Virus record (IMG/VR): IMGVR_UViG_641509434_000001
Location: 15,233 to 79,232 of that record
Source: a virus
Lineage: Duplodnaviria; Caudoviricetes
DNA: 64,000 nt
Strand: one strand, 5' to 3'
Part shown: piece by piece, positions 3,713 to 20,195 of the stretch
How the letters are laid out: each line of letters begins with the position of its first letter
Position numbering within the stretch: the first letter of the stretch is position 1
Notes under the pieces: model-generated
What the model was told of the DNA's origin: nothing
The model's database searches: none
The model's input: only the letters and a program-made list of their open reading frames with translations
Program-made: the position numbers and the translations under genes

Positions 3713-4840
3713 GTGGAAGATAATGATTACTGGTTGATAGAAAATTCCCCTTTTATAGATTTTCCTAAGATAATGAGTAAAGATTGGATAATTGGAGTAT
3801 TGATTACTGGACGCAATCAAGGAAAAACATTTGGTTGGTGGCATTATTTTTATAAAGCTGCATTTCCTACTAGAGAGGCATTTTGGAATGGTGAAATACA
3901 TGAAAAGTTTGGTTCTATAGTAGGTAATCTACTAGAAGTAACTACTACAGATATGCAAAAATCAGCAGAAGATGTGCTGATGCCATATCTTGAAACAGGT
4001 CAGCAGGTTGAATTAGTTGTTCGAAAAGCTCAATGCTATTTGAGAATAATTTCTATCAATAATAAAGGCTTTAAAGAAGTATACTATGAACAAGTCATAG
4101 GAGTATATGCTTCTTTATCTCAACCTAATACAATGCGCCGTATTGGTGAACAAGGTATTACACTTGTTCTTATTGAGGAGTGCAACCCTGAAAAGGAAAA
4201 TCATCCATTCGTAGGTAATGATACTTCTAAACTTTCATCTATCATAAAATCTATTACAAAAGGTAATGAAGATGAAAAACCAGTACGTATCCTCGCTATT
4301 GGTAACCAACAACTATTCCCATCAACAGTTCTTAAGTTTCTTAAGTTTGACGAAAATGACTTAGGTCTTAAAGATGGTCGATTATTCTTAATGGTTGACA
4401 GGCCTAAGGGGTTTAAGAAGAAATATGAAACTCTTATCTCAGATAATAGTGACTATGATAACTTTTCTAAACGTAAGTTAAATGATATTACTGAGCTAAA
4501 AGCTAAAAAAGAAACATATATTGAAAAATTTAAAGAAGTTCAACCAACAGTGTTTATTACAAACAACCAAGGAGTTTCTGTTGCTGGTTGGGTAACTCGC
4601 TTTGAAGGACGAGATGTACTATTTACAGTTTCTGATATTAAAGACTTATCAGAGTTCAGTGATAGTCTTGCTTATGAATTAAGTCCATTTACAGCAGAAC
4701 GTAAACGGTTTGCTATGCAGTTGGATATAGTAAGAAAGTACTACTATATGAACTCAGTTGTTGTAGGTAAAGACGACCGAGATACTTATTATAGTTTGAA
4801 CACTCTTGGATGTATTCCAAGCAAGAAAAGAGGAATTTAA
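3713..4840 (+). CDS. phi29-like DNA encapsidation (packaging) ATPase
   Basis: Walker A-like ITGRNQGKTFGW near the N-terminus, Walker B-like LVLIEE, LAIGN; 375 aa with no recognisable nuclease domain; upstream of connector and capsid genes. Confidence 0.75.
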   Translation: MEDNDYWLIENSPFIDFPKIMSKDWIIGVLITGRNQGKTFGWWHYFYKAAFPTREAFWNGEIHEKFGSIVGNLLEVTTTDMQKSAEDVLMPYLETGQQVELVVRKAQCYLRIISINNKGFKEVYYEQVIGVYASLSQPNTMRRIGEQGITLVLIEECNPEKENHPFVGNDTSKLSSIIKSITKGNEDEKPVRILAIGNQQLFPSTVLKFLKFDENDLGLKDGRLFLMVDRPKGFKKKYETLISDNSDYDNFSKRKLNDITELKAKKETYIEKFKEVQPTVFITNNQGVSVAGWVTRFEGRDVLFTVSDIKDLSEFSDSLAYELSPFTAERKRFAMQLDIVRKYYYMNSVVVGKDDRDTYYSLNTLGCIPSKKRGI

Positions 4841-5379
4841 TGAAATTAGATTATACAGTAAATTCTTTGAATGAAATAAAATCTAGTCGTCAAGGTGGAG
4901 TATTTAGTAGCATTCCTGACAAACCTTCAATTAAACGAAGTGAGCTAGGTGTTCCTTCAAATTTGCAAAAAGCAACTATGACTACTAAAGCAACATCATC
5001 AAACATGACGATGAAACAAAGAGTAGGGTCTAGCCATGTAGAAAATTCTATTGCTGTAATGACATCGGATAAGTCTCAAAGAAATTCAATAAGAAACTTT
5101 GGATGGAACCCATATTCTAAGGCTGACTTAGCATTACAAAAAGTAAGAAAGAATTTAAGTAACACAGATAGATTGGACTTTGTATCTAAATCTATTCACA
5201 ACACTGCTTTCCAAAACCTTACTCCTCAAGATAAACAAAACATTCAAAAGATTGCTTACAATGAGGATGCGGTTGCTAATATGCAGGCACAGAAAGCTGA
5301 TACGCCAACTGTGCAAGGTAATATCAAACAACCAAGAAATACTCAACAAAATCAACAAGGAGCAAATCAAAATGGATAA
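4840..5379 (+). CDS. putative internal virion protein, LDYTV leader + SRQGG motif
   Basis: Starts MKLDYTVNSLNEIKSSRQGG; Q/N-rich C-terminus. Confidence 0.65.
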   Translation: MKLDYTVNSLNEIKSSRQGGVFSSIPDKPSIKRSELGVPSNLQKATMTTKATSSNMTMKQRVGSSHVENSIAVMTSDKSQRNSIRNFGWNPYSKADLALQKVRKNLSNTDRLDFVSKSIHNTAFQNLTPQDKQNIQKIAYNEDAVANMQAQKADTPTVQGNIKQPRNTQQNQQGANQNG

Positions 5380-6013
5380 CAACTATCAAGTAGATATTAA
5401 TGCAAATGTAACTAATGGTTCTTCTCGTATGGGTGGTAAATTTGGTGAAACAATTGCTAGACAGCTTAATAAAAGCAATGAAAAAACTAAAGCACGACGT
5501 GATGCTTGGTCTAAGAAAAACCCACAACAAGCTAAATACATGCATGACCGTGGTAAATCAATCATTACGCCAGGTGAACGAGCAGTTAAAGCTGGTGTAG
5601 GAGTTGCTATGGGAGCAGCTGGTGCTGTAGCATCAAATGCTATTAAAACTTCTTTAAACAAGAAAGTCAATGACAAACTTGATGAAGAAGGTGTCACAAA
5701 TAAGTATGAACGAGACATGATCAACTCAACAGTTAATGGAGCAGTAACTTCTGCAACTAAAACTATTCCGCAAGGAATTAAAACTATGCGTGGTGGTTCT
5801 CGTCTTGGTGCAATTGGTCAAGGACTTATTGGTCGTGTTTATGACAAAAACTCTGAAATCTTTGTTAATGGTTTGTCACCAGAACAGTTATCAATCCTGT
5901 TGAAAATCATTCCAGAGACAGACATGGATGCTTTACATGAAGCTATTCCTGGTTCAGAAGGTCATGAACTTGCTTATATTCCAGTACAAACATTGAATAC
6001 AATGGGGTTATAA
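5372..6013 (+). CDS. putative internal virion protein, NYQVDI leader + SRMGG/SRLGA motifs
   Basis: AAGGAG RBS before ATG 5372; MDNNYQVDINANVTNGSSRMGG; Ala/Gly hydrophobic stretch. Confidence 0.7.
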   Translation: MDNNYQVDINANVTNGSSRMGGKFGETIARQLNKSNEKTKARRDAWSKKNPQQAKYMHDRGKSIITPGERAVKAGVGVAMGAAGAVASNAIKTSLNKKVNDKLDEEGVTNKYERDMINSTVNGAVTSATKTIPQGIKTMRGGSRLGAIGQGLIGRVYDKNSEIFVNGLSPEQLSILLKIIPETDMDALHEAIPGSEGHELAYIPVQTLNTMGL

Positions 6014-6014
6014 T

Positions 6015-7109
6015 ATGAGCAAATATGATTATACAGTAGATATCAATAATGAATTGGTAGAAGAAGGACGTCAAGGTAGTTCTAAAACTAGATTACTAGT
6101 AGGAGCTGCAGCAGGTGGACTTGCTGTTAATGCTCTTGCAGGTGGTGCTAGTAAGGTCGACAAACATATTGAAAGTGAATTTCATCATCCTGACAACCGT
6201 CAAGGTGGTTTTGGAGACTTCTTAGGTGGCATCAGGGGAATTGACCCAATTGCTGGCTTTAAAGGTGACTACAGTGGAGCTAAACAAGCATCTAAGTCTA
6301 GTAACTATCTTAAAGCAAATAAGAGTAGAGCCAACAACTTAAATGTTGACTTGAACCCAAGTGGTACCTTAGGTGGACCTACTACACAACAAGACTGGAA
6401 AGATGCTGACCAAATGACTAACTTAGCTCAAACTGGTCAACGTCGTAGATTGCAAACTAATACTGGTCGTACTGCTACACAAGGACAAGCTAATGTAGAT
6501 AATGCAAACATTCAATCACAAGTAGGTGCACAAAATGCACTAAATAATTACAATTCTACTAGTACATTGAATAATACAAATATACAAAATGCACAACTTG
6601 GCTTTGATTCTACAAATTATAGAAACACTGCCAATAGTAATATCGCAAGTAATAACTACGATTCTACTACTGCCCAAAATTCTGCTAAAGCTGCTGGAGC
6701 TATGAACTCTGCAGGTGTTGATATGTTTAAACAAGTCGCATCTGCTTATGATCCAAATGCTGTTGGTACAGATGGTGTTGCTGGTGGAGCATTACCAGAC
6801 ATTACTTCTGCTCTTGAGAAAGGTGCAAATGCACAAACTCAACTTGCACAATCTAATGCTAATGCTCTTGGTACACGTAACTCTGCATACAACTTGGCAG
6901 AATCAAGTAATGCTGTAGCCTATGGTGGAATGAATAGTGATATCCAAAGTGCTAATACTGGTACAGCTAAAGCATACGGAACTATGAATTCTATAAATAG
7001 TGCTCACAACACATACTTAGCTAATGCTCAAACAGGTGCTATCCAAGGTAATCTTAACAATGCCTTGCAAGGATATGACCTTGATGATTCATATAACTAT
7101 GGTAAATAA
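6015..7109 (+). CDS. putative ejection/pilot-like protein, YDYTVDI leader + RQGS/RQGG motifs
   Basis: MSKYDYTVDINN...GRQGS, then a hydrophobic A/G helix, NRQGG, and a long N/Q/A-rich region. Confidence 0.7.
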   Translation: MSKYDYTVDINNELVEEGRQGSSKTRLLVGAAAGGLAVNALAGGASKVDKHIESEFHHPDNRQGGFGDFLGGIRGIDPIAGFKGDYSGAKQASKSSNYLKANKSRANNLNVDLNPSGTLGGPTTQQDWKDADQMTNLAQTGQRRRLQTNTGRTATQGQANVDNANIQSQVGAQNALNNYNSTSTLNNTNIQNAQLGFDSTNYRNTANSNIASNNYDSTTAQNSAKAAGAMNSAGVDMFKQVASAYDPNAVGTDGVAGGALPDITSALEKGANAQTQLAQSNANALGTRNSAYNLAESSNAVAYGGMNSDIQSANTGTAKAYGTMNSINSAHNTYLANAQTGAIQGNLNNALQGYDLDDSYNYGK

Positions 7110-7148
7110 TAGTTATAACTAATAATATACTTATGAGGAGAGTTCATA

Positions 7149-7604
7149 ATGATTGAAACTTATTTTGAAAACGCAAATTCTACCATCGAGAAACTACACT
7201 CGATGTTTGATAGAATGATTAGCACAGCAGACTCTATTAGCTTAGAGTTTGTCTCAGATGAAGACTCTGTAGAGGTAGACATTGATGCTGCTTCTTCAGA
7301 CAATTCACGATTCCAAGCAGCTTGTGTGGCTGCTAAAGAAGCACTTAATGATATTCAAACTGGTATCACACAAACTAAGAACCGGTTTGATACATTATCA
7401 AGCACAGTTTCTAGACGTAAAGCACAATTAGAGTTTGTTGATAATTCAATGGCTAAAATTGCTGCTGCTGAAACCTCTAAAAATGCTGATGAACTTATTG
7501 ACGAAGTTACATCTCCTAAGAAAGACTTTGCTGCTCTTAAAGCACAATATCCAGACTTTACAGATGAACAAATCAATATTCTACTAAATGCAGGAGGTAA
7601 ATAA
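7149..7604 (+). CDS. coiled-coil protein (scaffold-like?)
   Basis: Helical, charged composition; GAGGAG RBS; head module. Confidence 0.55.
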   Translation: MIETYFENANSTIEKLHSMFDRMISTADSISLEFVSDEDSVEVDIDAASSDNSRFQAACVAAKEALNDIQTGITQTKNRFDTLSSTVSRRKAQLEFVDNSMAKIAAAETSKNADELIDEVTSPKKDFAALKAQYPDFTDEQINILLNAGGK

Positions 7605-7606
7605 TT

Positions 7607-8011
7607 ATGCCTAGTTACTTAACATCAAAAACATTTCCACAAAAATTACAACTTACACCAGATGAAATTTATGACATCATCAATGCGCCAATGAAAGAAA
7701 TGGAAAAATCTGACTTACTCAGTAATGACCAATCTATGATTGACTTAATTGTTGAAACTATGCCACCTAACTTATCAATGGAACTTTCTCGTGACATTAG
7801 TAAAATTCGTGACTTATTCCAACAACTTGTTGAAGATGATGAACGTTATGCTAAACTTGTAAAAGAAGCAGCATCTCGTGTAGGCTCAGTACGTGAAGCT
7901 ACTAGAGAAGAAGAAGATGAAGCACAGCAAAAACTTCGCGAAAGTGAAAATATGCAGAAGAAAGCTGAGGAATTACTGGAGAATGCTCGTAAAGCACGGG
8001 AGGGTAAATGA
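7607..8011 (+). CDS. coiled-coil protein, ends in AREGK
   Basis: E/K/R-rich helical C-terminus. Confidence 0.6.
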   Translation: MPSYLTSKTFPQKLQLTPDEIYDIINAPMKEMEKSDLLSNDQSMIDLIVETMPPNLSMELSRDISKIRDLFQQLVEDDERYAKLVKEAASRVGSVREATREEEDEAQQKLRESENMQKKAEELLENARKAREGK

Positions 8012-8676
8012 TGAACCCAAGATTAGACAGTAAATTTCGTGAAGAACTTCGCCACATGACTCCGAAGACTGCTTTGCTTACACACTTAATGGACTATTGG
8101 ACATCAGAAATCAAGCCCAACTTAGACGATTTTTCCACTATTGGCAAGGAAGTCAAGGTTGTAGGAAACAACACTGAAGATTACATCATCCTACATGATG
8201 ATGGTGTAGTCTTAATTGGGCAAATTGATTACTGCCACTATGGTCCCTTCAATGGATTCTCAAGTGGACCTCTTACTCCTCGTCAATTGAGTATTGGTAT
8301 TGATGTACTCAACAATCCTCGTATTATTCAGTTGATGAATCAGCAAGAAAAACGTAACAAGAAACGAGTAATTGCAACTACTCTTCCTATAGATTCTATT
8401 AATGTTGTAACACGTACGATTATTTCAGGTAACTACAGTTTTCCTATTTCAAATGTTGAAATTGATCAAGATTCTAAAACATTCATTATCAAAACATTGA
8501 AATCACGAGACAACAAACTTTACCAAGATTATCAATTAATTGAAAATATTATGCCTAAGGAGATTATTATAGATGAATCCCACAATAGACTTTCTAGTGT
8601 CGATTCAGGAGAGTTACAAAATTCCGCTAACAGCATCGGAAATGACCCTACTGAAGACACTCATTCAAAAGACTGA
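8008..8676 (+). CDS. hypothetical protein
   Basis: 222-aa ORF, GGGAGG RBS, ATGA overlap with the previous gene. Confidence 0.65.
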   Translation: MMNPRLDSKFREELRHMTPKTALLTHLMDYWTSEIKPNLDDFSTIGKEVKVVGNNTEDYIILHDDGVVLIGQIDYCHYGPFNGFSSGPLTPRQLSIGIDVLNNPRIIQLMNQQEKRNKKRVIATTLPIDSINVVTRTIISGNYSFPISNVEIDQDSKTFIIKTLKSRDNKLYQDYQLIENIMPKEIIIDESHNRLSSVDSGELQNSANSIGNDPTEDTHSKD

Positions 8677-9121
8677 TTCTCCTAAAATATTTGACGCACC
8701 AGAAGAGTTTGAATTCTTAATTGGAACAGCTGGTGTGGGATATGCTAAAATAAAACAAAGTAGTGATAAAGGACTATTTGAAGAAGCTCCTCTATCTGGA
8801 GTAACTCGTGATGGTTGGGCAAAAACCGGTGGAAAATATAGTTCACCACTTAATGTTGCAACATCATTGTCTTATTTCTACAATTACTTGAAATACAAGT
8901 ATGAACAACCTATTTTAGATGTAAGTCCCTATGGTCATCTTCCTAATCATCCTTTAAATTTGTTTATAAAGAACAACAGCCCCATTGTTAATATTCTACC
9001 TGAAGTCATTACTGACTATGTAGAGTATAATAAGTGGTCAATTCTTACAGTGGATAAAACTTACAAAGCATACATTCCTGTGGAAGATACTAGTAGGAAG
9101 GATATAATGGACATCGAATGA
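8573..9121 (+). CDS. hypothetical protein
   Basis: AAGGAG RBS upstream of ATG 8573; coupled to the connector gene. Confidence 0.65.
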   Translation: MNPTIDFLVSIQESYKIPLTASEMTLLKTLIQKTDSPKIFDAPEEFEFLIGTAGVGYAKIKQSSDKGLFEEAPLSGVTRDGWAKTGGKYSSPLNVATSLSYFYNYLKYKYEQPILDVSPYGHLPNHPLNLFIKNNSPIVNILPEVITDYVEYNKWSILTVDKTYKAYIPVEDTSRKDIMDIE

Positions 9122-10077
9122 CATTTTTAGAAACTGATGCCAGAGAAGTCATTGAAACTTTTACAAATCAGAATCTACATAGATTTTATAATATGCTTCC
9201 AACTATGATTACTTGGGAGTGTGCTAACAAAGACCCAGACTATAGATTATCTTCAATGCAAGTTGAAAAGAATTTACGACTAGGTACAGGTCTTTGTGTA
9301 CTAGGTAGAGATATTGCAAATAACTTTACTTACTTATCTGACAACTTAACTCGCCCATTTCCTGGTATTGTCCCTCTTTGTGAGTGGAAACCAGAAAATA
9401 TGACAATCGCTGGTGCAGAAAACCCAGGTGCACCTCTTATCATTGTGACAAATCAAACTCCAATGATATCTCAAAGACTAGCTATGGATATTAGACGTGG
9501 TATCATATCAGGTCTATCTTCTGACCTTGCAGCTATTAGAATTGCAAGTGAAGAAATTGGAACTTTACAGTACTTACGTTATGCTAATGCAACTCAATTG
9601 AACAGACAAGCATTTATCTCTGGTCCATCCAAAGAAGCAGTTCGTGATACTCAAGAACAAATTCAAAGTTTATCTCCATTTGTAGGAATTGTAACTACTG
9701 ATGAAACATCTACTAATGCTAGCAATTTTGTAGAAGGCTCAATTACATCTCAGTCAATCAACAGTGTTGACAGAATGCAATCCTTTACGCAACAAATGGA
9801 CTCAATTGAAAGAAACTTACTTACTCAGTTAGGTGTTCCTACAATGGAAACTTCTAATGAACGACGTGTTCAAGCAGAAGTTGAAGCACTTAAGTCTGAA
9901 CCTCAAGTATATGCAGCAACTTATCAAAAACCTCGAGAAGAATCAGCTCGTCTTATTCTAGAATCTGAAGGTTACGAAGTTAAGCCTGTATTTACAATGT
10001 CATGGCAACAACCAATGTATCCAGGTAGCTCTGCTCTTATGGGACTTGGTCAGTTACCAATGAATCCAGTTCAATAG
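9118..10077 (+). CDS. phi29-like upper collar / connector (portal) protein
   Basis: 319 aa; NMLPTMITWE near the N-terminus and LLTQLGV-x6-NERRVQAEVE resemble phi29 gp10 family motifs; lies between ATPase and capsid. Confidence 0.7.
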   Translation: MTFLETDAREVIETFTNQNLHRFYNMLPTMITWECANKDPDYRLSSMQVEKNLRLGTGLCVLGRDIANNFTYLSDNLTRPFPGIVPLCEWKPENMTIAGAENPGAPLIIVTNQTPMISQRLAMDIRRGIISGLSSDLAAIRIASEEIGTLQYLRYANATQLNRQAFISGPSKEAVRDTQEQIQSLSPFVGIVTTDETSTNASNFVEGSITSQSINSVDRMQSFTQQMDSIERNLLTQLGVPTMETSNERRVQAEVEALKSEPQVYAATYQKPREESARLILESEGYEVKPVFTMSWQQPMYPGSSALMGLGQLPMNPVQ

Positions 10078-10157
10078 AAAAAGGGTATTATGACACTAAT
10101 AATTGCTGGTAGAGACCCAACGTCATTACTAGAATATCTAGAGAAAGGAGAAATTTC

Positions 10158-10340
10158 ATGAACAAGTTTGATTTTACAGTTTATGCAAAAATCAAAGCTA
10201 AACGTGATGAAGCAGTGAAAGATTTGCGAAAAATTAACTTATCAACAGATAAGTCTGTGGATAGAACTGCTGAAATCTCTGCTATTACTAGCTTAATTTC
10301 TGCACTTAATGCTCAACTGCAGGAGATTGTATATGGCTAA
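10158..10340 (+). CDS. small protein with FDFTV leader variant
   Basis: AAAGGAG RBS; MNKFDFTVYAK. Confidence 0.6.
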   Translation: MNKFDFTVYAKIKAKRDEAVKDLRKINLSTDKSVDRTAEISAITSLISALNAQLQEIVYG

Positions 10341-10743
10341 TTTAGATTACTCTGTAGATATACAAGGAATAATGACAAAGGATGCTTTGAGTAGAGAAGG
10401 TGCCACACTATCTGGCATTGCTCAAGCAGGTAAAGCAGCTTACAAAAAGACACCCGAAATGTTAAATAAAGCCAAAGGAATGGCTTATGAAAATGTTCCA
10501 TTTGCTAAAAAAGTAGGTAACTTATCAAAATCTAAAGTAGGCTTAGGAGCAGGTATGACAGCTTTGGCTGTTGCACCTGTTGCTATTAGTGCTGCTGATT
10601 CTGCAACAAGAGTCAGCGATTATGCACCTTATGCTGGAGCATCACAGCCTATGCAAACTGACATTTCTGCATTAACAAACAATAATACAAACGATGCATA
10701 CTCTGTAAATACCTCTGGTATTACAAATGCAACTTATCACTAA
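10333..10743 (+). CDS. putative internal virion protein, LDYSVDI leader + SREGA motif
   Basis: AGGAG RBS before ATG 10333; hydrophobic VGLGAGMTALAVAPVAISAA. Confidence 0.7.
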   Translation: MANLDYSVDIQGIMTKDALSREGATLSGIAQAGKAAYKKTPEMLNKAKGMAYENVPFAKKVGNLSKSKVGLGAGMTALAVAPVAISAADSATRVSDYAPYAGASQPMQTDISALTNNNTNDAYSVNTSGITNATYH

Positions 10744-10764: not shown

Positions 10765-11478
10765 ATGAACGAATTTGAACAAGGTGTTGAATACACTGAT
10801 GACAACTTAGTAACTATGGTCCAAGAAGACCAAGCTGCAGTGGAAGCTGCTGCTGGTGGAACTGATAAAGACTTCGTAGCAGACACAACTGAAGGAGCTA
10901 ATCCAGAAGGACTCATCGACGAAGATGGTGAAGTAATTCCTGAAGGTGGAGCTCGTGAAGGTGGAGTAGTAGGCGACTATGCTAAAGCTCAAGGTAAAGC
11001 ACAAGTAAATGGTGCTATCCACCCATTGAAATCTAAACGTGCTAAAGCCCAAACTAAAGAAGACCGTTATGCTAATGGGGAAAACGTTGTAAGTCGTAAT
11101 GTACGCCCTTACTCTACTTCAGAACTTAACAAACAAGCTGACCTTGTAAGTAAGAAACCTGGCTATGGTCGTGAAGGTGCAAGTGAAGTAATGGCTCTTG
11201 GTGCTAATGGTCGTCCAATTCTTGACGTAACACCTAAAGCTGGTATGTCAGGTAAAGCTAAAGCAGGTATTGCTGCTGGTATTGGCGCTGCTGCTGCAGG
11301 AGTTGGAGCTGCTGCTTATGCTAAACGCAAACGTGATGAACGTAAAGGCGGAGATGAAGAAATGATTGAAGAACCATTTGTAGAATCAGCACCAGTAGAC
11401 TTTAGTGACCCAGTTGAAGCTAACTATGGATCTATTCAAGCCGCTGTCGGTTACGCAATGCAAGACCACCGTTTATAA
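10765..11478 (+). CDS. acidic putative internal/scaffold protein with AREGG, GREGA and RKGG motifs
   Basis: Acidic N-terminus, Ala/Gly hydrophobic helix; directly upstream of the capsid gene. Confidence 0.7.
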   Translation: MNEFEQGVEYTDDNLVTMVQEDQAAVEAAAGGTDKDFVADTTEGANPEGLIDEDGEVIPEGGAREGGVVGDYAKAQGKAQVNGAIHPLKSKRAKAQTKEDRYANGENVVSRNVRPYSTSELNKQADLVSKKPGYGREGASEVMALGANGRPILDVTPKAGMSGKAKAGIAAGIGAAAAGVGAAAYAKRKRDERKGGDEEMIEEPFVESAPVDFSDPVEANYGSIQAAVGYAMQDHRL

Positions 11479-11581: not shown

Positions 11582-12916
11582 ATGCCATCAATTTCATCAA
11601 TCGGAGCTGGTTCACAAGCTTCTATCGCACATTCAACTGCTAATGCAAACATCCAATCAGACTGGACTGATGCATTGTTAATGACACAACATAGCAAACT
11701 CTATGTTGACTATGGTTCAAACATGAACCCATTGTCTGACTTCGTTACTCACAACGATACTCAATTCGGTGGTTTCATCCAAATGTTCGGTCTTAACTTG
11801 GCTACTGCTCACTACGCAAACAGCCCATCTAAGATCCGTGACGTAAACCCTGCTGTCCTTGAATCTCCAAGTATCATTGCAGAAATCGTTAAGAAAGAAC
11901 GTTCTGCTAAATTCTTGCTTTCAATCGACGAATCAGAAGTTATCAAAATCAACTCTTCACCAGCTGAAGAAGCTGCCTTCATTGAAGCCAACGTTGCTAA
12001 CTTGTACAAATCTAACTCATATGACGAATACTTCCACCTTGGTGGTATCTTGCTTGAGTCTGTAACTGGTCACGTATTCAACGTACAACTTATCAAAGAT
12101 CCAGCTAAATCTGATGCTGTTGCATTCAAACAAGTAGCTAAATCACTTAATGTGGCTGCTGCTGAAATGCTCTTGCCAACTGCAAACTACAACCCTTACG
12201 GACGTATTGTTGCAACTGACTCTGTTGATAACCTCCGCTTCATCACTACACCTGGTACTCAATTTGAAGTTAATGCTTGGCTTGCTGACCGTTACCACAA
12301 AACACTTGTTGACATGGGTGTCCAAACTACATTGGTTACTGAAGACCTCTTCGCTGAACGTTGGATCTATGCTACTGCACACACTGCAACTGCACAAGAC
12401 TTCACTGTTCAAGCTGACAGTACTCGTTGGTTAGACCCATTCACATTCGCTGTTAATGATGTTATCCCTGCTGGTTCATACGCTATGCCAGGTGCTGAAG
12501 GAGCTGTCCCAGTTGTTTCAGAAGCTGATGCTAAACGTTTCGTAGGAGCATTGTTAGACGAACGTGCATTTGGTCTCCGTGACCGTATCCCTGCTGCATT
12601 GTACCCAGAACGTTCAAATCGTGGTTTGGTATCAAACATCTGGTTGCAAGTACGTCAATGGGCTTACTCAACAGGTCTTGTTAATACTCTTGCATTCTAT
12701 GCAGAGTTGGATGCAGAACCTAAACTTACAGGTGCGGGTACATGGGTAGACGGTACAGATAATCGTACTATCTTGTTCGATGCATCTGCTGTATCTGGTG
12801 TTAAAGTAGGTGACTACGTAACATTCACAGTTGATAGTAAAGAAGTTGTCGGCTCAGTAGCTAAAGTTGACGGTGCCAACTCTTACGCTACAGTAGCAAT
12901 TGGTCTTAACAAATAG
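11582..12916 (+). CDS. major capsid protein (phi29-like) with C-terminal beta-rich extension
   Basis: 444 aa; strongly biased highly-expressed codon usage (TTC, AAC, ATC); TQFGGFIQ and SNRGLVSNIWL resemble phi29-family capsids; followed by a terminator. Confidence 0.75.
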   Translation: MPSISSIGAGSQASIAHSTANANIQSDWTDALLMTQHSKLYVDYGSNMNPLSDFVTHNDTQFGGFIQMFGLNLATAHYANSPSKIRDVNPAVLESPSIIAEIVKKERSAKFLLSIDESEVIKINSSPAEEAAFIEANVANLYKSNSYDEYFHLGGILLESVTGHVFNVQLIKDPAKSDAVAFKQVAKSLNVAAAEMLLPTANYNPYGRIVATDSVDNLRFITTPGTQFEVNAWLADRYHKTLVDMGVQTTLVTEDLFAERWIYATAHTATAQDFTVQADSTRWLDPFTFAVNDVIPAGSYAMPGAEGAVPVVSEADAKRFVGALLDERAFGLRDRIPAALYPERSNRGLVSNIWLQVRQWAYSTGLVNTLAFYAELDAEPKLTGAGTWVDGTDNRTILFDASAVSGVKVGDYVTFTVDSKEVVGSVAKVDGANSYATVAIGLNK

Positions 12917-13020: not shown

Positions 13021-13233
13021 ATGACATATAGCCCATTTGAGTCATTGAACTCAGACAGAATTACAGATACAAAAGAGGCTGCTGACTATCTTATTGCAGA
13101 TGTCTTAAACCGCCCTGTAACTTATCCAGAATTTGATAGCAAAGGCAATCCAATTCCAAGTTATCTAGGTCGTGTTTCAGATAAAATTGTAAATGGTCAG
13201 GACCGTGCAGTTAAAGTGAAAGGAATGAAATAA
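13021..13233 (+). CDS. small hypothetical virion protein
   Basis: AAGGAG RBS, 70 aa. Confidence 0.65.
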   Translation: MTYSPFESLNSDRITDTKEAADYLIADVLNRPVTYPEFDSKGNPIPSYLGRVSDKIVNGQDRAVKVKGMK

Positions 13234-13682
13234 TGAATAGATTAGATTATCATGTTGACATCACCAACAAAATCGAAAAATGTGATGGTCGTGAAGGAGC
13301 CCGTCAAGGTGCTTTAGGTGATGTTAAAGATCAAATGATGATTGCTCAACAACAAGCAATGGCTAAACAAAAAGCTGAAGCTCAACAGCAAGCTCAAATT
13401 TCTACCATTCGTGCAACACAAGCTGCACAAGATATTCCTGTAATCAATCAACAAGAACAACAAATTAATGTTCTTACTCAATCATTGCAAGATGCTCAAT
13501 CACAAAATATGCAATTACAAGGTGCAGTTCAAGAAGCTACTGCAGTAGCACAAGATGCTCAAGCACAAGCTGACCAAGCTGCCAATGTTATTAATACAGC
13601 TAATGTATTGACACAAATGCAAGCAGAGAACCCAGACTCTCCAGTTATCTTGGCTGCTGCCAATGATGCTACAGGAGAGTAG
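13233..13682 (+). CDS. Q/A-rich coiled-coil protein, LDYHVDI leader + GREGARQGA
   Basis: MNRLDYHVDITNKIEKCDGREGARQGALG. Confidence 0.7.
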   Translation: MNRLDYHVDITNKIEKCDGREGARQGALGDVKDQMMIAQQQAMAKQKAEAQQQAQISTIRATQAAQDIPVINQQEQQINVLTQSLQDAQSQNMQLQGAVQEATAVAQDAQAQADQAANVINTANVLTQMQAENPDSPVILAAANDATGE

Positions 13683-13694
13683 ATAAGGAGACTT

Positions 13695-13916
13695 ATGGAT
13701 ACTCAATCTTTACTTAAAAGAGACGATAATATCTTTGCTACAACTGGTCTCATTATGAATGAGTTTCAAGACCCTGATGCTCACAGAAGTGTCTATGAGC
13801 GTCATTGTGGTAGGCTTGGTGGGGGCTATGCAGGAAGTGGTAGTGTAACAACTTACGCTACTGAAGCAAGTCCTTGTCAAGACATTATTGATTTCGTTAT
13901 GAAAGGTGGCATGTAA
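13695..13916 (+). CDS. small protein with GRLGG motif
   Basis: AAGGAG RBS, 73 aa. Confidence 0.6.
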   Translation: MDTQSLLKRDDNIFATTGLIMNEFQDPDAHRSVYERHCGRLGGGYAGSGSVTTYATEASPCQDIIDFVMKGGM

Positions 13917-13964
13917 TATGTCATCTGGAGAGAAACTATAAGAAAGAAATAAAGAAGGAAATTA

Positions 13965-14828
13965 ATGTTGATTACAGCAGCAGGTAAAATAGGTGCAGGT
14001 AAAAGTGCACTAACTGCCATGTTGGCAGATGTTTTAGATACAAAAGCTATATATGAACCAATTGATGACAACCCTCTTCTAGAGAAATTCTATGAAGATA
14101 AAGATACTTATGGGTTTGTATTTCAAATAGACATGATTAGTCGTAGATTTGAATTGATTCAACAAGCATTACTACAAAATAATTCAGTACTTGATAGATC
14201 TATCTTGGAAGATTCAATCTTCTTAGACCAACTATTTCTTGAAGGACATGTGAATAAATATGAACATAGAGCTTATCACAAATTACTCGACAGAATGATG
14301 TTAGAACTAGATGTTCTACCAAAGAAACGACCAGATCTTCTTGTTTATATTGATGTCCCCTTTGATAAGGAAATTGAGCGTATCAATAAAAGAGCAAGAG
14401 CATTTGAGAAAGTATCAGAAGGGACAGAACTCTGGGATTATTTTGCAATGCATTCTAAAATGTATGACAAATGGATAAACGAATTTAACGAGTGTCCAGT
14501 CTATACAATTGATGCAATGAAATATGACTATGTCGAAAACGAACAAGACCGTATCGAAGTTCTTGAAAACATTGTTGCTAAACTTGTAACAATTGGAGCA
14601 TTAAGCTTTAAAGAAGCCACACTTGCATACTGTAAAATAAATAATGCAGCACCTACAATTGTAGCAATAACTTTATATAACAAAATTCAGAAATTGCTTG
14701 ACGGCAAATATGAATATCACAACTTGGCTAATCTATATGACTTGAACATTCAAACCATAGATAGCTTACAAGAACTCATTAGAAAAGAAAACGAAGGTAA
14801 TAAATGTTCAGTCATATCAAACACATAA
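13965..14828 (+). CDS. deoxynucleoside kinase (dNK family)
   Basis: P-loop GKIGAGKS, YEP, LDRSILED, PDLLVYID, ERINKRARAFE. Confidence 0.9.
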   Translation: MLITAAGKIGAGKSALTAMLADVLDTKAIYEPIDDNPLLEKFYEDKDTYGFVFQIDMISRRFELIQQALLQNNSVLDRSILEDSIFLDQLFLEGHVNKYEHRAYHKLLDRMMLELDVLPKKRPDLLVYIDVPFDKEIERINKRARAFEKVSEGTELWDYFAMHSKMYDKWINEFNECPVYTIDAMKYDYVENEQDRIEVLENIVAKLVTIGALSFKEATLAYCKINNAAPTIVAITLYNKIQKLLDGKYEYHNLANLYDLNIQTIDSLQELIRKENEGNKCSVISNT

Positions 14829-15553
14829 CAAAGCATGAAGTCGCAAATAATATCAAACAATTATTCACACTAAGATATTACAAAGATGGTTTATCAGGAT
14901 GGACACCACAATCAAGAATTTTGTGGTTAATTGGTCTTGCAGTAATCTTTGTAACTGCTGCTCCACATGGGTTTGATTCTATCAATGTAATTGCTACATT
15001 GGGAGGTATGATTGGCTTTACTTGTACAATGACTATTACTAATGGTAAATCAGTCAACGGTATCTTAGGTTTTATTAGTGCGATTCTTATATCAACAGTA
15101 GCTATCCATTCAGGTAACTACGCTGATGTATCAATGCAATCAATGTATATCTTATTCTTAGACTTACCAATTATGTTATTTGGTAACCAATGGTCTCAAG
15201 CTAAGATTAAAGCATTTGATATGAACGCTGTAAAACTTATTCTTGCTGTTGCTATCATTGGTTTCAGTCTTATGTATGTATTAGATACAAGCGTATTTCT
15301 TAGTCCACGTCCAATGATTGACTCAATATCAGCTACAACAGGTTTTGTTGGATTATTCTTGATGTTGGGTAAATACAGAGCTCAATATGTAGCATGGATG
15401 CTTGGTTCTGTTATCTCCATTACATTGTGGTTAATGACTGCTTTGCAAGGCGATGCAAACTGGGTAATGTTTGCTACATATTGTGTATACATGTCATCAT
15501 CACTGATTGGAATGTTCTGGTCAGTATGGTCACATCCAGAAAAGGTAAACTAA
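14804..15553 (+). CDS. pnuC: PnuC-family nucleoside / nicotinamide-riboside transporter
   Basis: Multi-pass membrane protein with PMIDSISA and QYVAW motifs; adjacent to dNK. Confidence 0.8.
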   Translation: MFSHIKHITKHEVANNIKQLFTLRYYKDGLSGWTPQSRILWLIGLAVIFVTAAPHGFDSINVIATLGGMIGFTCTMTITNGKSVNGILGFISAILISTVAIHSGNYADVSMQSMYILFLDLPIMLFGNQWSQAKIKAFDMNAVKLILAVAIIGFSLMYVLDTSVFLSPRPMIDSISATTGFVGLFLMLGKYRAQYVAWMLGSVISITLWLMTALQGDANWVMFATYCVYMSSSLIGMFWSVWSHPEKVN

Positions 15554-16153
15554 ATGTTCGATAAAGATGCAATCAAAAAGGACATGCTTAAACTAGCAGA
15601 ACAATTTGAAGGACATCCTGTTGACTATGATGCAAAGGATGGTCCTCAATGTGCTGACTTTTCTGCATTCCTTATTAAAAATACTACTGGTAAAACTATC
15701 TGGGGTAATGCAATTGAAACAGATAACAAAGAAAATATCAACATTATCAATGAAAACCCAAATGTTGAAGCCAAACATGTTGACCCACATGAAATTGCTG
15801 AAGGTGACTTGTTAGTCGAATCTAATAGTAACCCGAAGGTCGGTCACGTTTCTCTTATTGATAAAATTCATGACGATGGTACAGTAACTGTCTATGAACA
15901 AAACTTGGATGGTGATGCTACCGGCCCAAACCCACTGGGTGTACAAAAGCATACTAGAAAGTTAGCTGACTTTGATGGCTGGGGTAGAGTAATGGGTGCA
16001 TTACGTATCGAAGCTATACCTGAAGAGAAACAATGGGTACGCAACCCTAATTCTCGTCGTAACGGGCAACTGCAACGTGCGGGTAGCCGACAAGGTGGAG
16101 CCTATTCTAGTATCACTAGTCTATATGAACAGTTAGGTATGACGTTTAAGTAA
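15554..16153 (+). CDS. stand-alone CHAP-domain cysteine hydrolase with C-terminal SRQGG motif
   Basis: DYDAKDGPQCADF (catalytic Cys), WGNA, GHVSLI (His), VYEQN. Confidence 0.85.
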   Translation: MFDKDAIKKDMLKLAEQFEGHPVDYDAKDGPQCADFSAFLIKNTTGKTIWGNAIETDNKENINIINENPNVEAKHVDPHEIAEGDLLVESNSNPKVGHVSLIDKIHDDGTVTVYEQNLDGDATGPNPLGVQKHTRKLADFDGWGRVMGALRIEAIPEEKQWVRNPNSRRNGQLQRAGSRQGGAYSSITSLYEQLGMTFK

Positions 16154-16157
16154 TCAG

Positions 16158-16210
16158 GCGGTTATTCTATGATTAAGTTCATAGATAAGCGGTATAATTA
16201 TATTAAAAGA
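16158..16210 (+). promoter_or_regulatory. 53-bp repeated dyad element followed by TATAAT (putative late promoter/operator)
   Basis: 46/53 identical to 18474-18526. Confidence 0.6.
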
Positions 16211-16241
16211 GATACTATAAAATTAAATAGAAAGGAATATA

Positions 16242-16964
16242 ATGTGTGATAAAATAGATGGCTGGAACCCAGCCGACATTGAAGCAGGTGGTAATGGAAT
16301 TGAAGGCTATCAAGCCATGAATGGTATGTATGATTTAACTCATTCAGAAGATAGTGCTCGTGAAGGAGGTATGTTTCGTAAAGCTAAACATCCTATTCCA
16401 CAAATACAAGCTGATGAAGATGAGTATATGGACGACTTTAAAGCTTATGAAGACTTTATGTCTAATAACGAAAGTGAAGACTCAGAAGGTGGTGCCCGTG
16501 AGGGTGGTTTCATTAAAGATGCCACAACTGTTGACTCTAACTCAACTGGTGTAGCTGATACAGTCAAGAAAGGTGTAGATGCTATTGGAATCGGTAAGAT
16601 TCCATTTGTAGGCGGAGCTGCTAAATTCATTGCTGGCGATGTGGTAGGTGGACTTGCTGATGATGCAGTAAATGTTGTAGGACATGGTACTGCTGCAGCT
16701 GCAGATGCTATCAAAGGAGATACATCAAAGGCTGCTGGTCAACTTAAATCTGCTGCTATGCCTGCTTTCAACTTAGGTCTTACTGCTGCTACTGCTGGTG
16801 CAGGTGGAGCATTAGCTAAAGGTGGAGCTAAAGCTGCTGGTGCAGCTATGGCTAAGACTGCTGCTAAAGAACCACTTACATTAGTACAAGCTGGTATGTC
16901 TGGCTTACAAGACATTCAAGATAGAAATATTGATCAAAATAATTTACAAGACAATTTAAACTAA
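16242..16964 (+). CDS. putative internal/ejection protein with two AREGG motifs
   Basis: Acidic N-terminal segments end at SAREGG and GAREGG; Ala/Gly-rich amphipathic C-terminal half. Confidence 0.7.
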   Translation: MCDKIDGWNPADIEAGGNGIEGYQAMNGMYDLTHSEDSAREGGMFRKAKHPIPQIQADEDEYMDDFKAYEDFMSNNESEDSEGGAREGGFIKDATTVDSNSTGVADTVKKGVDAIGIGKIPFVGGAAKFIAGDVVGGLADDAVNVVGHGTAAAADAIKGDTSKAAGQLKSAAMPAFNLGLTAATAGAGGALAKGGAKAAGAAMAKTAAKEPLTLVQAGMSGLQDIQDRNIDQNNLQDNLN

Positions 16965-16974
16965 AGGAGTCATT

Positions 16975-17478: not shown

Positions 17479-17494
17479 TAACAAGGAGTAAACT

Positions 17495-18469: not shown

Positions 18470-18473
18470 TCTT

Positions 18474-18526
18474 GCGGTTAATCTAAGATTAAGTTCCTTG
18501 ATTATCCGTATAATTATATTAAAAGA
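18474..18526 (+). promoter_or_regulatory. 53-bp repeated dyad element followed by TATAAT
   Basis: CGGTTAATCTAAG-ATTAAGTT-CCTTGATTATCCG-TATAATTATATT. Confidence 0.6.
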
Positions 18527-18540
18527 TATGGAGAAATTCA

Positions 18541-18729
18541 ATGTCAATTATAGATCCTATTGCAGGACAATCTAAGATAACAACAAGTATAAATAATAAA
18601 GACAGAGGTTTTAATGTGGAAATGGAGATAAGTGGACTTCCTACTACTAATCTTATTCCATTTAATACTAAAGAAGAAAATACACTTAATGGTGTATATA
18701 ATTTGTCTTTAGCAGATACAGATAAATAG
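18541..18729 (+). CDS. small hypothetical protein
   Basis: GGAG RBS, 62 aa. Confidence 0.6.
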   Translation: MSIIDPIAGQSKITTSINNKDRGFNVEMEISGLPTTNLIPFNTKEENTLNGVYNLSLADTDK

Positions 18730-18737
18730 GAGAGAAA

Positions 18738-19844: not shown

Positions 19845-19853
19845 TAGGAGGTA

Positions 19854-19894
19854 GACCGGAATGGTGTAGCTACGCTCGACTCGTAGCCTGGTCA
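19854..19894 (+). ncRNA. mini tRNA-like structure (acceptor-like stem + T-arm)
   Basis: GACCGG/CTGGTC stem stacked on GCTACG-CTCGACT-CGTAGC, joined by AATGGTGTA. Confidence 0.4.
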
Positions 19895-19946
19895 TAATTC
19901 TTTACAACAAAAGTAAAGAGTAAAAGAAAGGCTCAAGGAAAACATT

Positions 19947-20195
19947 ATGATTATAAAGAAAAGAATCGTAACTTCTAGTAAGTATCATTCAAACAACCCA
20001 GTAAAACAATTCTCTAGCAATCCTATTGAAGCAGACATCAATGCTAGATTTTTGAATGCTAAAAACAATCCTGGAAGTAAACAAGTTGCGTTAGACTATG
20101 CTCATAAATTAGCTAAAGCTAATGAATCAGAGCATGAAGTATATGAAACACGTCAAGGTAACTTATGGAATGACGACAACATAGATATGAGGTAA
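19947..20195 (+). CDS. small protein with TRQGN motif
   Basis: AAGGA RBS, 82 aa. Confidence 0.55.
   Translation: MIIKKRIVTSSKYHSNNPVKQFSSNPIEADINARFLNAKNNPGSKQVALDYAHKLAKANESEHEVYETRQGNLWNDDNIDMR

What the first reader, a model, noticed from the sequence alone, without database searches (positions are those of the whole stretch)
4840..20195. About 10 unrelated head-module proteins share an R[EQ]G[GA] motif: candidate virion maturation cleavage system
Seen in sequence: SRQGG (4840 ORF); SRMGG and SRLGA (5372); GRQGS and NRQGG (6015); AREGK at the C-terminus (7607); SREGA (10333); AREGG, GREGA and ERKGG (10765); GREGARQGA (13233); GRLGG (13695); SRQGG (15554 CHAP); SAREGG and GAREGG (16242); TRQGN (19947). 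I count 13 R[EQ]G triplets between 4.8 and 20.2 kb and noticed none in the replication or tail proteins. The proteins are otherwise dissimilar. The motif often separates an acidic or leader segment from a hydrophobic-starting amphipathic one (GG|FGDFLGG, GG|KFGETI, GG|VFSS, GG|MFRK, GG|FIKD, GA|TLSGIAQ). Established: adenovirus protease and ASFV pS273R mature core proteins at di-glycine-type sites, and C39 peptidases cut double-glycine leaders. Inference: this phage has many internal/ejection proteins matured by a sequence-specific RxG[GA] protease, a scheme I do not know from phi29-like phages.
Basis: partly seen in the sequence, partly recalled or inferred. Interest (0 to 1): 0.9.

Follow-up and report, generated by a model that had tools for sequence, protein, structure and literature searches.

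The report
Shared leader and RxGG head-protein sites
In the head genes of a large lactococcal phage, about ten otherwise unrelated small proteins carry a conserved Arg-x-Gly-Gly/Ala motif, five of them just after a shared 20-residue N-terminal leader. This looks like a T4-style packaging-and-cleavage system, but no cutting has been shown and no protease has been identified.

Summary
R[EQ]G occurs 13 times in the ORFs at 4840-20195, against 1.24 expected, and 0 times in the rest of the window. The stricter [SAG]R[EQMLK]G[GAS] occurs 14 times in the 79-kb genome, 13 of them in head-module ORFs.

Five ORFs (4840, 5372, 6015, 10333, 13233) share an N-terminal leader, M-x-x-L-D-Y-x-V-D-I followed 7-12 residues later by R-x-G-[GAS].

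Synonymous codons vary within the motif and the leaders, so this is not a DNA-level signal. Relatives keep R and G while x and the flanks change. A distant relative has SRKG five times, against 0.033 expected.

My best reading (0.5) is a T4-like targeting leader plus maturation cleavage sites in scaffold, internal and ejection proteins. Cleavage is inferred. Eight known protease families are absent. The only recognisable peptidase in the head module is a CHAP enzyme, which by fold looks like a cell-wall lysin.

I rate it a new variant of a known kind, interest about 0.6.

The parts
4840..4899 (+). Leader of ORF 4840-5379 (179 aa): MKLDYTVNSLNEIKSSRQGG, with the site SRQGG at 4885-4899
   Evidence: Orthologues keep it.
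5372..5437 (+). Leader of ORF 5372-6013 (213 aa): MDNNYQVDINANVTNGSSRMGG, with the site at 5423-5437
   Evidence: In family alignment A6, residues M1 Y5 V7 D8 I9 N10 A11 N12 V13 R19 G21 G22 K23 are invariant. The leader is more conserved than the next 49 residues.
5798..5812 (+). Internal site GSRLGA in ORF 5372, lying between a basic middle part (+13) and an acidic C-terminal domain (-6)
   Evidence: It becomes GSRQGA in the 61%-identical homologue P0067, whose upstream flank has changed.
6015..6080 (+). Leader of ORF 6015-7109 (364 aa): MSKYDYTVDINNELVEEGRQGS, with the site at 6066-6080
6195..6209 (+). Second site NRQGG in ORF 6015, after a Gly/Ala-rich hydrophobic segment
   Evidence: In P0065 it reads NRQGS and the downstream sequence has diverged.
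7994..8008 (+). AREGK at the very C-terminus of ORF 7607-8011 (helical, scaffold-like). A doubtful site.
   Evidence: It is absent from the L003 homologue, which ends ANAKRKK.
10333..10404 (+). Leader of ORF 10333-10743 (136 aa): MANLDYSVDIQGIMTKDALSREGA, with the site at 10390-10404
   Evidence: The site is SRQGA in P0058.
10765..11478 (+). ORF just upstream of the major capsid gene (237 aa), with three sites: AREGG at 10951, GREGA at 11167 and ERKGG at 11338. Predicted fragment charges are -17, +7, +6 and -9. Probably a scaffold or internal protein.
   Evidence: The L003 homologue shares the C-terminal peptide (E 0.003) and carries EREG twice plus GSRKGA and GSRKGN.
13233..13313 (+). Leader of ORF 13233-13682 (149 aa, Gln-rich): MNRLDYHVDITNKIEKCDGREGARQGA, with tandem sites at 13287 and 13299
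   Evidence: E/Q and Q/K exchanges occur among orthologues P0051-P0054.
13809..13823 (+). GRLGG in ORF 13695-13916 (73 aa). A possible site.
   Evidence: Not tested in relatives.
15554..16153 (+). CHAP peptidase (199 aa, named Gp053a of Lactococcus phage KSY1 in BFVD). Residues C33, H98, E115 and N117 are invariant. The site GSRQGG lies at 16085-16099 in a low-confidence tail, 17 residues from the C-terminus.
   Evidence: Pfam CHAP 38 bits against a cut-off of 26. Alignment A5. AF2 mean pLDDT 80.9, with residues 169-187 below 50. Best fold matches are endolysin CHAP domains. The tail motif LQRAGSRQGGA is kept in the 84% and 78% homologues.
16242..16964 (+). ORF of 240 aa with two AREGG sites (16356 and 16494). 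They separate two acidic N-terminal segments (-7 and -8) from a Gly/Ala-rich body.
20148..20162 (+). TRQGN near the C-terminus of ORF 19947-20195. A doubtful site.
   Evidence: Not tested in relatives.
7149..10077 (+). Conserved block of two helical scaffold-like ORFs (7149, 7607), two ORFs of unknown function (8008, 8573) and the portal (9118). None carries a standard site. ORF 8008 is an untested protease candidate.
   Evidence: The same gene order is found in L003. ORF 8008 is 34% identical to its L003 homologue, which keeps G-[FY]-S-S-G and one His. No family, structure or fold was assigned.
11582..12916 (+). Major capsid protein, which has no site
   Evidence: phrog_2006, E 8e-76

Best explanation
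The window is the late region of a KSY1-type lactococcal podophage with phi29-like head genes. About ten small head-module proteins are made as precursors. Five begin with a common ~20-residue leader (M-x-x-L-D-Y-x-V-D-I, then 7-12 residues) that ends in R-x-G-[G/A/S]. The same tetrapeptide recurs inside these and five other proteins, at junctions between acidic segments and basic or Gly/Ala-rich segments.

I propose that the leader works like a T4 capsid-targeting sequence, bringing the proteins into the assembling prohead. A phage-encoded protease would then cut at R-x-G-small, most likely after the fourth residue. That would remove the leaders and acidic pro-segments, break up the scaffold-like protein encoded upstream of the capsid gene, and leave basic and glycine-zipper-like fragments plus a CHAP cell-wall hydrolase inside the head as internal or ejection proteins.

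What is shown: the motif, the leader, their enrichment, selection at the amino-acid level, and conservation or concerted change in relatives. What is inferred: the cleavage itself, the cut position, packaging into the head, and the identity of the protease.
For: - Enrichment: 13 R[EQ]G against 1.24 expected, 0 of 1000 shuffles. Thirteen of the 14 strict motifs in the genome lie in head-module ORFs, and there are none on the minus strand.
- Leader: it is found only at the N-termini of five ORFs in the whole genome, on either strand. It aligns. Leave-one-out profiles recover each member above all unrelated candidates among 4051 N-termini.
- Real start codons: each leader ATG has its own Shine-Dalgarno-like sequence.
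- Selection on the protein: Arg, Gly and Glu codons and the leader codons vary synonymously.
- Conservation in the 5372 family: leader plus site are identical at 21/23, 16/23 and 14/23 positions, against 13/49, 13/49 and 20/45 in the next stretch. R and GG are invariant while x changes M to E and L to Q.
- Conservation elsewhere: the CHAP tail motif is kept at 84% and 78% identity. E/Q/K exchanges at x occur in the orthologues of 13233 and 10333, and the 6015 orthologue P0065 changes the fifth residue (NRQGG to NRQGS) with a diverged flank.
- Concerted change: relative L003 (capsid protein 52% identical) has SRKG 5 times against 0.033 expected, 0 of 1000 shuffles. The sites lie in the homologue of ORF 10765, in the ORF after CHAP and in the ORF after the capsid gene.
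- Tandem sites are spaced by exactly four residues in both lineages (REGA-RQGA and RKGS-RKGN), which fits a tetrapeptide unit.
- Sites lie at charge boundaries and, in the one protein modelled, in a low-confidence linker.
- Precedent: 10-20-residue T4 targeting leaders removed by the prohead protease, and multi-site processing of giant-phage head proteins (PMC5694885, passages seen).
Against: - No experimental evidence of cleavage or of virion location was available. The original KSY1 paper (pmid 17467024) is not held, so its protein data are unseen.
- No protease was found. Eight Pfam protease families gave 0 hits at E<=1. Pfam and PHROG scans of 57 window ORFs (7 of them scanned in both libraries) and 7 L003 ORFs gave no peptidase except CHAP.
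- By fold, the CHAP enzyme matches cell-wall lysins best (6ist E 3e-6), with C39 far behind (E 0.015).
- The leader was not found in the L003 lineage. Only 7.2 kb of that lineage's DNA could be read, so this is weak evidence.
- Three instances (AREGK at a C-terminus, TRQGN, GRLGG) depart from the consensus and were not tested in relatives.
- The nearest isolated relative by capsid protein, Weissella phage phiYS61, has no such system.
Confidence: 0.5

Rival explanations
1. The motif is a docking or recognition element that is not cut. It would bind one common partner (portal, scaffold, capsid interior or packaged DNA) or be a site of post-translational modification. The leader would be a permanent assembly tag.
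For: No protease was identified. In L003 the motif sits in strongly basic KR.G-type repeats (REGRRGKRIGKRHG) that could bind DNA directly. A concerted change of x fits any single partner.
Against: The motif sits at the junction of a conserved leader with unrelated bodies, and between oppositely charged segments. Tandem copies are four residues apart. A copy lies 17 residues from the end of an enzyme, in a low-confidence tail. All of these are typical of processing sites. A binding motif would not need to follow a separate conserved leader.
Confidence: 0.2
2. The sites are cut by a host (Lactococcus) protease that the phage exploits, in the way staphylococcal phage 80alpha uses the host Prp protease on leaders that mimic ribosomal protein L27. 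The 80alpha case is recalled, not read here.
For: No phage protease was found (same calls as above). Firmicute phages are known to borrow host processing (recalled).
Against: The variable residue changed at all sites together between two phage lineages (E/Q to K). That is easier to explain by co-evolution with a phage-encoded partner, although a change of host could also do it. The motif does not resemble the L27 leader (recalled). I obtained no host genome handle, so host proteins were not searched for the leader.
Confidence: 0.12
3. The motif is a by-product of composition, of a DNA-level signal (ribosome-binding-like AGGAGG, or a phage promoter), or of mis-called ORF starts.
For: One site (16242, GAA GGA GGT ATG) reads like a Shine-Dalgarno sequence followed by ATG. 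The 14th strict motif, at window 62045, probably lies in an untranslated upstream extension.
Against: Shuffles that keep composition never reach the observed counts. Codons for R, E/Q and G and the leader codons vary synonymously. The leader ATGs have their own Shine-Dalgarno sequences. Protein-level conservation holds in homologues down to 47% identity.
Confidence: 0.03

Closest known systems
T4 prohead core: capsid-targeting sequences on internal proteins, cut by the gp21 protease (Peptidase S77). The same theme occurs in the giant phages phiKZ, 201phi2-1 and SPN3US.
   Same: Several unrelated head proteins share a short N-terminal leader of 10-20 residues that ends at the protease motif. 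Scaffold and ejection proteins contain further internal sites. The protease or cargo enzymes can lose a C-terminal piece (PMC5694885, passages seen).
   Different: Those proteases cut after Glu, in [LI]-x-E or [ASG]-x-E motifs. Here the motif is R-x-G-[GAS]. No S77 homologue is present. The phage here is a phi29-related podovirus of a Gram-positive host, and the leader sequence is unrelated.
Adenovirus protease (C5), ASFV pS273R and Ulp1-like enzymes (C48), which cut core proteins at Gly-Gly-type sites
   Same: A virion-maturation protease cutting many core proteins at a short motif with Gly at P2 and a small residue at P1. This is recalled knowledge.
   Different: The adenain motif has a hydrophobic residue where this one has Arg (recalled). 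Neither Peptidase_C5 nor C48 is present in the genome.
Alphavirus nsP2 papain-like protease, with R-A-G-[A/G/C] sites
   Same: The nearest match to the motif itself: Arg at P4, Gly at P2, a small residue at P1, cut by a papain-fold cysteine protease.
   Different: It processes an RNA-virus polyprotein. There is no sequence relation and no leader.
Double-glycine leader peptides cut by C39 peptidase domains of ABC exporters
   Same: An N-terminal leader of about 15-25 residues ending in Gly-Gly/Ala/Ser, common in lactic acid bacteria.
   Different: No C39 domain is present in the phage. The leader consensus differs, since the hydrophobic -4/-7/-12 pattern (recalled) is not seen. Internal sites and proteins of 136-364 aa do not fit an export leader.
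Firmicute phages with leader-processed head proteins: 80alpha with host Prp (recalled) and Cp-1 orf13 (title only)
   Same: Head proteins of Gram-positive phages carrying a shared cleavable N-terminal leader. Cp-1 is phi29-like.
   Different: No Prp family member is present and no Cp-1 orf13 relative (best tblastn E 3.9). The capsid protein here carries no site.

Membership tests
T4-type targeting-leader / prohead-protease system | Peptidase_S77 (gp21-like) protease gene | tested here: not met
   PF03420: 0 hits at E<=1 in the 79-kb genome
T4-type targeting-leader / prohead-protease system | Short N-terminal leader shared by several head proteins and ending at the protease motif | tested here: met
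   Five ORFs share it. Leave-one-out recovery succeeds for each.
T4-type targeting-leader / prohead-protease system | Cleavage C-terminal to Glu in [LI]-x-E or [ASG]-x-E | tested here: not met
   The enriched motif is R-x-G-[GAS]. The known motif is taken from PMC5694885.
T4-type targeting-leader / prohead-protease system | Leader removed and protein found inside the mature head | not testable with these tools
   Needs virion proteomics. The original KSY1 paper is not held.
HK97-type prohead protease (Peptidase_S78) | S78 domain in the head module | tested here: not met
   PF04586: 0 hits. Profile comparison of ORF 8008 (A7) with HK97 gp4 gave probability 0.25%.
C39 double-glycine leader system | C39 peptidase domain | tested here: not met
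   PF03412: 0 hits. The CHAP model matches PCAT1 C39 only at E 0.015.
Adenain / Ulp1-like clan CE maturation proteases | Peptidase_C5 or C48 domain | tested here: not met
   PF00770 and PF02902: 0 hits
Prp / Cp-1 orf13-type leader protease | Prp-family cysteine protease encoded by the phage | tested here: not met
   PF04327: 0 hits. tblastn of Cp-1 orf13 gave best E 3.9. A host Prp was not examined.
ClpP / S49 phage head proteases | CLP_protease or Peptidase_S49 domain | tested here: not met
   PF00574 and PF01343: 0 hits
CHAP (PF05257) for ORF 15554-16153 | Pfam score above cut-off, invariant Cys and His, papain-like fold | tested here: met
   38 bits against 26. C33, H98, E115 and N117 are invariant in 23 sequences. 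Foldseek best hits are CHAP endolysins, E 3e-6 to 2e-4.
CHAP as the maturation protease | Cuts R-x-G-x sites in the head proteins | not testable with these tools
There is only indirect charge co-variation.

The most novel reading that the evidence does not exclude
The head-module CHAP enzyme (ORF 15554, a papain-fold enzyme of the cell-wall-lysin type) is itself the maturation protease. It would cut R-x-G-small sites in about ten head proteins and trim its own C-terminal tail, which would be a new job for a CHAP domain.

Supporting leads:
- It is the only recognisable peptidase in the head module, and the phage has a separate holin/amidase lysis cassette.
- In the distant lineage it sits between the scaffold-like gene and the capsid gene, flanked by motif-bearing ORFs.
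- The loop just before the catalytic His has swapped charge together with the motif. It is S90/K95 (loop charge +1) in 3 of 3 KSY1-clade enzymes, whose sites have E/Q. It is D90/D95 (loop charge -2 or -3) in 19 of 19 other-clade enzymes that cover the loop, and the one member of that lineage whose DNA could be read (L003) has K at x.
Probability: 0.2. Interest if true: 0.85.

Novelty: new variant of a known kind. Interest (0 to 1): 0.6.

Why it matters
Proteolytic head maturation with targeting leaders is well documented for T4 and the giant myophages. I found no description of it for KSY1 in the parts of the four papers I read: passages around each KSY1 mention in PMC11476376, PMC4281155, PMC3900856 and PMC3888941, and in PMC11476376 also around protease, proteolytic, maturation, internal protein and cleavage. 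Two library searches on KSY1 listed 24 and 11 papers.

If the reading is right, it adds three things:
- A new cleavage specificity (R-x-G-small) and a new, very recognisable packaging leader, in a Gram-positive podophage.
- A pointer to a protease that no current family model detects, or to a CHAP domain used as a protease.
- A possible role for the many small orphan head genes in filling and sizing this phage's unusually long capsid (223 x 45 nm, PMC11476376).

The leader would also be a ready tag for loading foreign proteins into lactococcal phage capsids. The motif gives a simple regex for finding cargo proteins in the 60-70 kb metagenomic relatives.

Tried and rejected
Relatives:
- DNA of relatives: megablast of 20 kb against phages gave no match. 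tblastn of the capsid protein found only Weissella phiYS61 at 22.5% identity.
- IMG/VR scans with the capsid protein, capsid alignment A1 and 5372-family alignment A6 found no relatives.
- Genome-contig scans with A1 and with a tail protein found nothing. This also left me without a Lactococcus genome handle.
- The metagenome scan gave only L002 (1.7 kb) and L003 (7.2 kb).
- The leader-profile search (A4, longer proteins, E<=10) returned 16 proteins, all from the KSY1 clade.
- phmmer of ORF 5372 against 1.84 billion representatives gave only 3 hits.

Protease hunt:
- Eight Pfam families searched in the genome, all negative.
- Pfam and PHROG scans of ORFs found no peptidase except CHAP.
- ESM Atlas on ORFs 8008 and 8573 gave nothing usable.
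- AF2 of ORF 8008 with a two-sequence alignment failed (pLDDT 42.5).
- PDB sequence searches of 8008, 8573 and 4840 gave nothing.
- hhalign of 8008 against HK97 gp4 gave probability 0.25%.

Other:
- The G-x-S-x-G-like G[FY]SSG with a conserved His about 60 residues upstream in ORF 8008 stays an untested lead. So does the conserved H[LI]PNHPL in ORF 8573.
- The DNA-level explanation (Shine-Dalgarno or promoter) was rejected.
- phiYS61 was scanned for the system and lacks it, apart from a single KSRKGS at one N-terminus.
- The KSY1 and Cp-1 protease papers are not held.
- Supplements of papers were not consulted.

Full report
WHAT THE WINDOW IS. All long ORFs lie on the + strand, and GC is about 35%. 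The window is bases 15233-79232 of a 79,232-base virus record, G000. That length, two T7-like RNA polymerase genes and phi29-like head genes match the description of Lactococcus phage KSY1 (Chopinvirus) in PMC11476376 (passages). BFVD names the window's CHAP protein as Gp053a of that phage at 100% identity.

PHROG and Pfam assign the following:
- a phi29-type packaging ATPase (3713)
- an upper collar/portal (9118)
- the major capsid protein (11582, E 8e-76)
- an Ig-like head decoration protein (16975)
- a lower-collar-like adaptor (17495)
- a second capsid paralogue (18738)
- tail proteins from 20.2 kb onward
- a CHAP peptidase (15554)

A separate lysis cassette lies at 31.2-33.5 kb, with holin, Amidase_2 and CW_7.

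THE OBSERVATION.
- R[EQ]G occurs 13 times in the ORFs starting at 4840-20195 (4955 aa), against 1.24 +/- 1.06 in within-protein shuffles (0 of 1000 reach 13).
- It occurs 0 times in the other window ORFs (14766 aa), where 3.07 are expected (40 of 1000 shuffles give 0).
- R[EQ]G[GA] occurs 10 times against 0.20 expected (all).
- The 15 kb of genome outside the window add one instance, EREGD.
- In six-frame translation of the whole genome, [SAG]R[EQMLK]G[GAS] occurs 14 times, all in + frames. Thirteen are in head-module ORFs. The 14th lies in a probable non-translated upstream extension of ORF 62000.

A SECOND FEATURE: A COMMON LEADER. ORFs 4840, 5372, 6015, 10333 and 13233 begin M-x-x-[LYN]-[DN]-Y-x-V-[DN]-I. 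Seven to twelve residues later comes R-x-G-[GAS] (alignment).
- A regex for this arrangement hits only these five N-termini in the whole genome, on both strands.
- In leave-one-out profile searches against 4051 candidate N-termini (every start codon in six frames of G000, L003, phiYS61 and Cp-1), the left-out leader always ranks above every unrelated sequence. Left-out E values are 2e-6 to 0.023; the best unrelated hits are 0.015 to 0.65.
- ORF 10158 starts MNKFDFTV but has no R-x-G-G and does not score.

NOT A DNA-LEVEL SIGNAL. R[EQ]GG could be encoded by a ribosome-binding-like AGGAGG, and this phage uses its own RNA polymerases, so I checked the DNA.
- Arg is CGT, AGA, CGA, AGG or CGG. Gly is GGT, GGA, GGC or GGG. 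Glu is GAA or GAG.
- Leader codons also differ synonymously (TAT/TAC, GTA/GTT, GAT/GAC, ATT/ATC/ATA).
- Each leader ATG has its own Shine-Dalgarno-like sequence at normal spacing.

Selection is therefore on the peptide.

RELATIVES. No isolate in the phage collection is close. Metagenomic proteins 50-98% identical to the capsid protein do exist.

Within the KSY1 clade:
- CHAP homologues at 84% and 78% identity keep LQRAGSRQGGA, while the residues after it change.
- Orthologues of 13233 show GREGARQGA changing to GRQGARQGA or GRQGARKGT.
- Orthologues of 10333 show SREGA changing to SRQGA.
- Orthologues of 6015 show NRQGG|FGDF changing to NRQGS|LDGS, with a diverged flank.

The exhaustive phmmer search with ORF 5372 found only three representatives in 1.84 billion proteins.
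- The 61% homologue has SREGG after the leader and GSRQGA internally. KSY1 has SRMGG and GSRLGA at those places.
- The 47-48% homologues have AREGG.
- In that family the first 23 residues are identical at 21/23, 16/23 and 14/23 positions. The next stretch is identical at 13/49, 13/49 and 20/45.

So R and the glycines are fixed, x is free among E, Q, M, L and K, and the leader is the best-kept part of the N-terminal half.

A DISTANT LINEAGE. L003 is a 7.2-kb metagenome contig with a capsid protein 52% identical. Its gene order is: homologue of 10765, CHAP, a small basic ORF, capsid, a small ORF, then homologues of 7149, 7607, 8008, 8573, portal and lower collar.
- SRKG occurs 5 times against 0.033 expected, and R[EQK]G 10 times against 1.89 (0 of 1000 shuffles each).
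- The sites are in the 10765 homologue, the ORF after CHAP and the ORF after the capsid gene.
- The variable residue has thus changed to Lys at all sites together. This is what co-evolution with one recognition partner would give.
- Tandem sites are spaced by four residues in both lineages (REGA-RQGA in KSY1, RKGS-RKGN in L003). That suggests a tetrapeptide unit, with the cut after its fourth residue. This last step is inference.

WHAT THE SUBSTRATES LOOK LIKE. If cuts fall after the fourth residue, the products would be as follows:
- Leaders of 20-27 residues would be removed.
- ORF 10765 would split into pieces with charges -17, +7, +6 and -9.
- ORF 5372 would give leader, +13 and -6.
- ORF 4840 would give leader and +10.
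- ORF 16242 would lose two acidic segments (-7 and -8).

Several bodies contain Gly/Ala-rich, weakly hydrophobic stretches. Their reading as glycine-zipper-like membrane segments of ejection proteins is my inference.

ORF 10765 lies directly upstream of the capsid gene. It shares only its last 15 residues with the L003 homologue (E 0.003), which would fit a scaffold-like protein with a conserved capsid-binding end that is broken up on maturation.

The CHAP site lies in a tail that AF2 models with pLDDT below 50 (residues 169-187), while the domain is confident (mean 80.9). In 20 other-clade homologues the CHAP ends at RIE[DE]-like residues. In L003 the next ORF can start at a TTG just after the stop. 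It carries SRKG and ends ...NLYEIASG..., resembling the KSY1 tail ...SLYEQLGMTFK.

THE MISSING PROTEASE.
- Peptidase_S78, C39, Prp, S77, C5, ClpP, S49 and C48 each give 0 hits at E<=1 in the genome.
- Cp-1 orf13 has no relative (best E 3.9).
- Pfam and PHROG scans of the head, tail and many other ORFs show no peptidase except CHAP.
- The conserved unknown ORFs 8008 and 8573, next to the portal gene, could not be assigned. A conserved G[FY]SSG plus one His in 8008 is only a lead.
- The CHAP model matches endolysin CHAP domains best (6ist E 3e-6; PlyGRCS, PlyPy) and C39 only weakly (E 0.015). BFVD neighbours are lysins.

The sober reading is that CHAP is a packaged cell-wall hydrolase and itself a substrate.

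Some points still favour CHAP as the protease. It is papain-fold. It is not needed for lysis, given the separate cassette. It is embedded among the substrates in both lineages. Of seven positions with a clade-fixed change of charge class, two lie in the loop just before the catalytic His. These are S90/K95 (loop charge +1) in 3 of 3 KSY1-clade enzymes and D90/D95 (loop charge -2 or -3) in 19 of 19 others that cover the loop. This mirrors E/Q against K at the variable site residue. A difference in the hosts' cell-wall chemistry could explain the same change, so I give this 0.2.

COMPARISON WITH KNOWN SYSTEMS. Functionally the nearest is the T4 prohead core. There, 10-20-residue targeting leaders on internal proteins are removed by gp21, and giant phages process many head and ejection proteins at one motif, with C-terminal trimming of the protease (PMC5694885, passages).

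Membership fails on three counts: the protease family is absent, the motif is different, and the leader is unrelated. Adenain, pS273R and C39 are analogies by Gly-Gly specificity only, and none of these domains is present. From memory, the alphavirus nsP2 site R-A-G-[AGC] is the closest motif.

Cp-1, a phi29-like phage, is reported to encode a maturation protease (title only). Proteolysis as such is therefore not foreign to this group, but that enzyme is not present here.

VERDICT. The motif and the leader are real and functional (about 0.9). The reading that they are a targeting leader plus cleavage sites for head maturation is the best available, at about 0.6 including the host-protease variant and 0.5 for a phage enzyme. 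It rests wholly on sequence logic. I found no mention of this in the KSY1 passages I read or in the listings of two library searches. The original 2007 paper and all supplements were not seen. I rate it a new variant of a known kind, with interest 0.6.

Noticed in passing
window 13965-15553: A deoxynucleoside kinase-like gene and a PnuC-like transporter gene sit inside the head module, between motif-bearing ORFs and the CHAP gene. In L003 the CHAP gene lies directly beside the capsid gene instead. Weissella phage phiYS61 also has a PnuC-like gene next to its terminase.
   Followed up: partly
window 10158-10340: A 60-aa ORF starts MNKFDFTV, like the leader, but has no R-x-G-G and does not score with the leader profile. 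It could be a degenerate or regulatory relative of the leader.
   Followed up: partly
L003 1126-1575 and window 16040-16153: The C-terminal tail of the KSY1 CHAP (site plus SLYEQLGMTFK) corresponds to the end of a separate small basic ORF downstream of CHAP in the distant lineage. This is either a gene fusion or split, or a frameshift product. A TTG start lies right after the CHAP stop.
   Followed up: partly
window 26616-30400: Two successive pairs of tail or baseplate genes hit the same PHROGs. ORFs 26616 (199 aa) and 27533 (168 aa) look like shortened copies of 28125 (299 aa) and 29042 (452 aa).
   Followed up: no
window 8008-9121: ORFs 8008 and 8573 overlap by about 100 nt in different frames. 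The ESM Atlas holds the second ORF only from its residue 24. Both are conserved in L003, where the second keeps H[LI]PNHPL.
   Followed up: partly
window 62000-62905: The longest ORF starts at a GTG and contains GRLGG at residue 17. An internal ATG (MNISYQ...) looks like the real start, so this motif copy is probably not translated.
   Followed up: partly
window ORFs outside 4840-20195: R[EQ]G is absent (0 observed, 3.07 expected; 40 of 1000 shuffles give 0). This is a mild depletion that could reflect avoidance of the site in other proteins, or chance.
   Followed up: partly
L005 (phiYS61) 10160-10669: One ORF downstream of the capsid gene starts MSIAGEIISVVKSRKGSS, a single SRKG 12 residues from the N-terminus. 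It is the only such case in that phage.
   Followed up: no
window 33621-37432: A 687-aa tail protein (phrog_2248, E 4e-153) and a 582-aa ORF lie after the lysis cassette, apart from the main tail genes.
   Followed up: no
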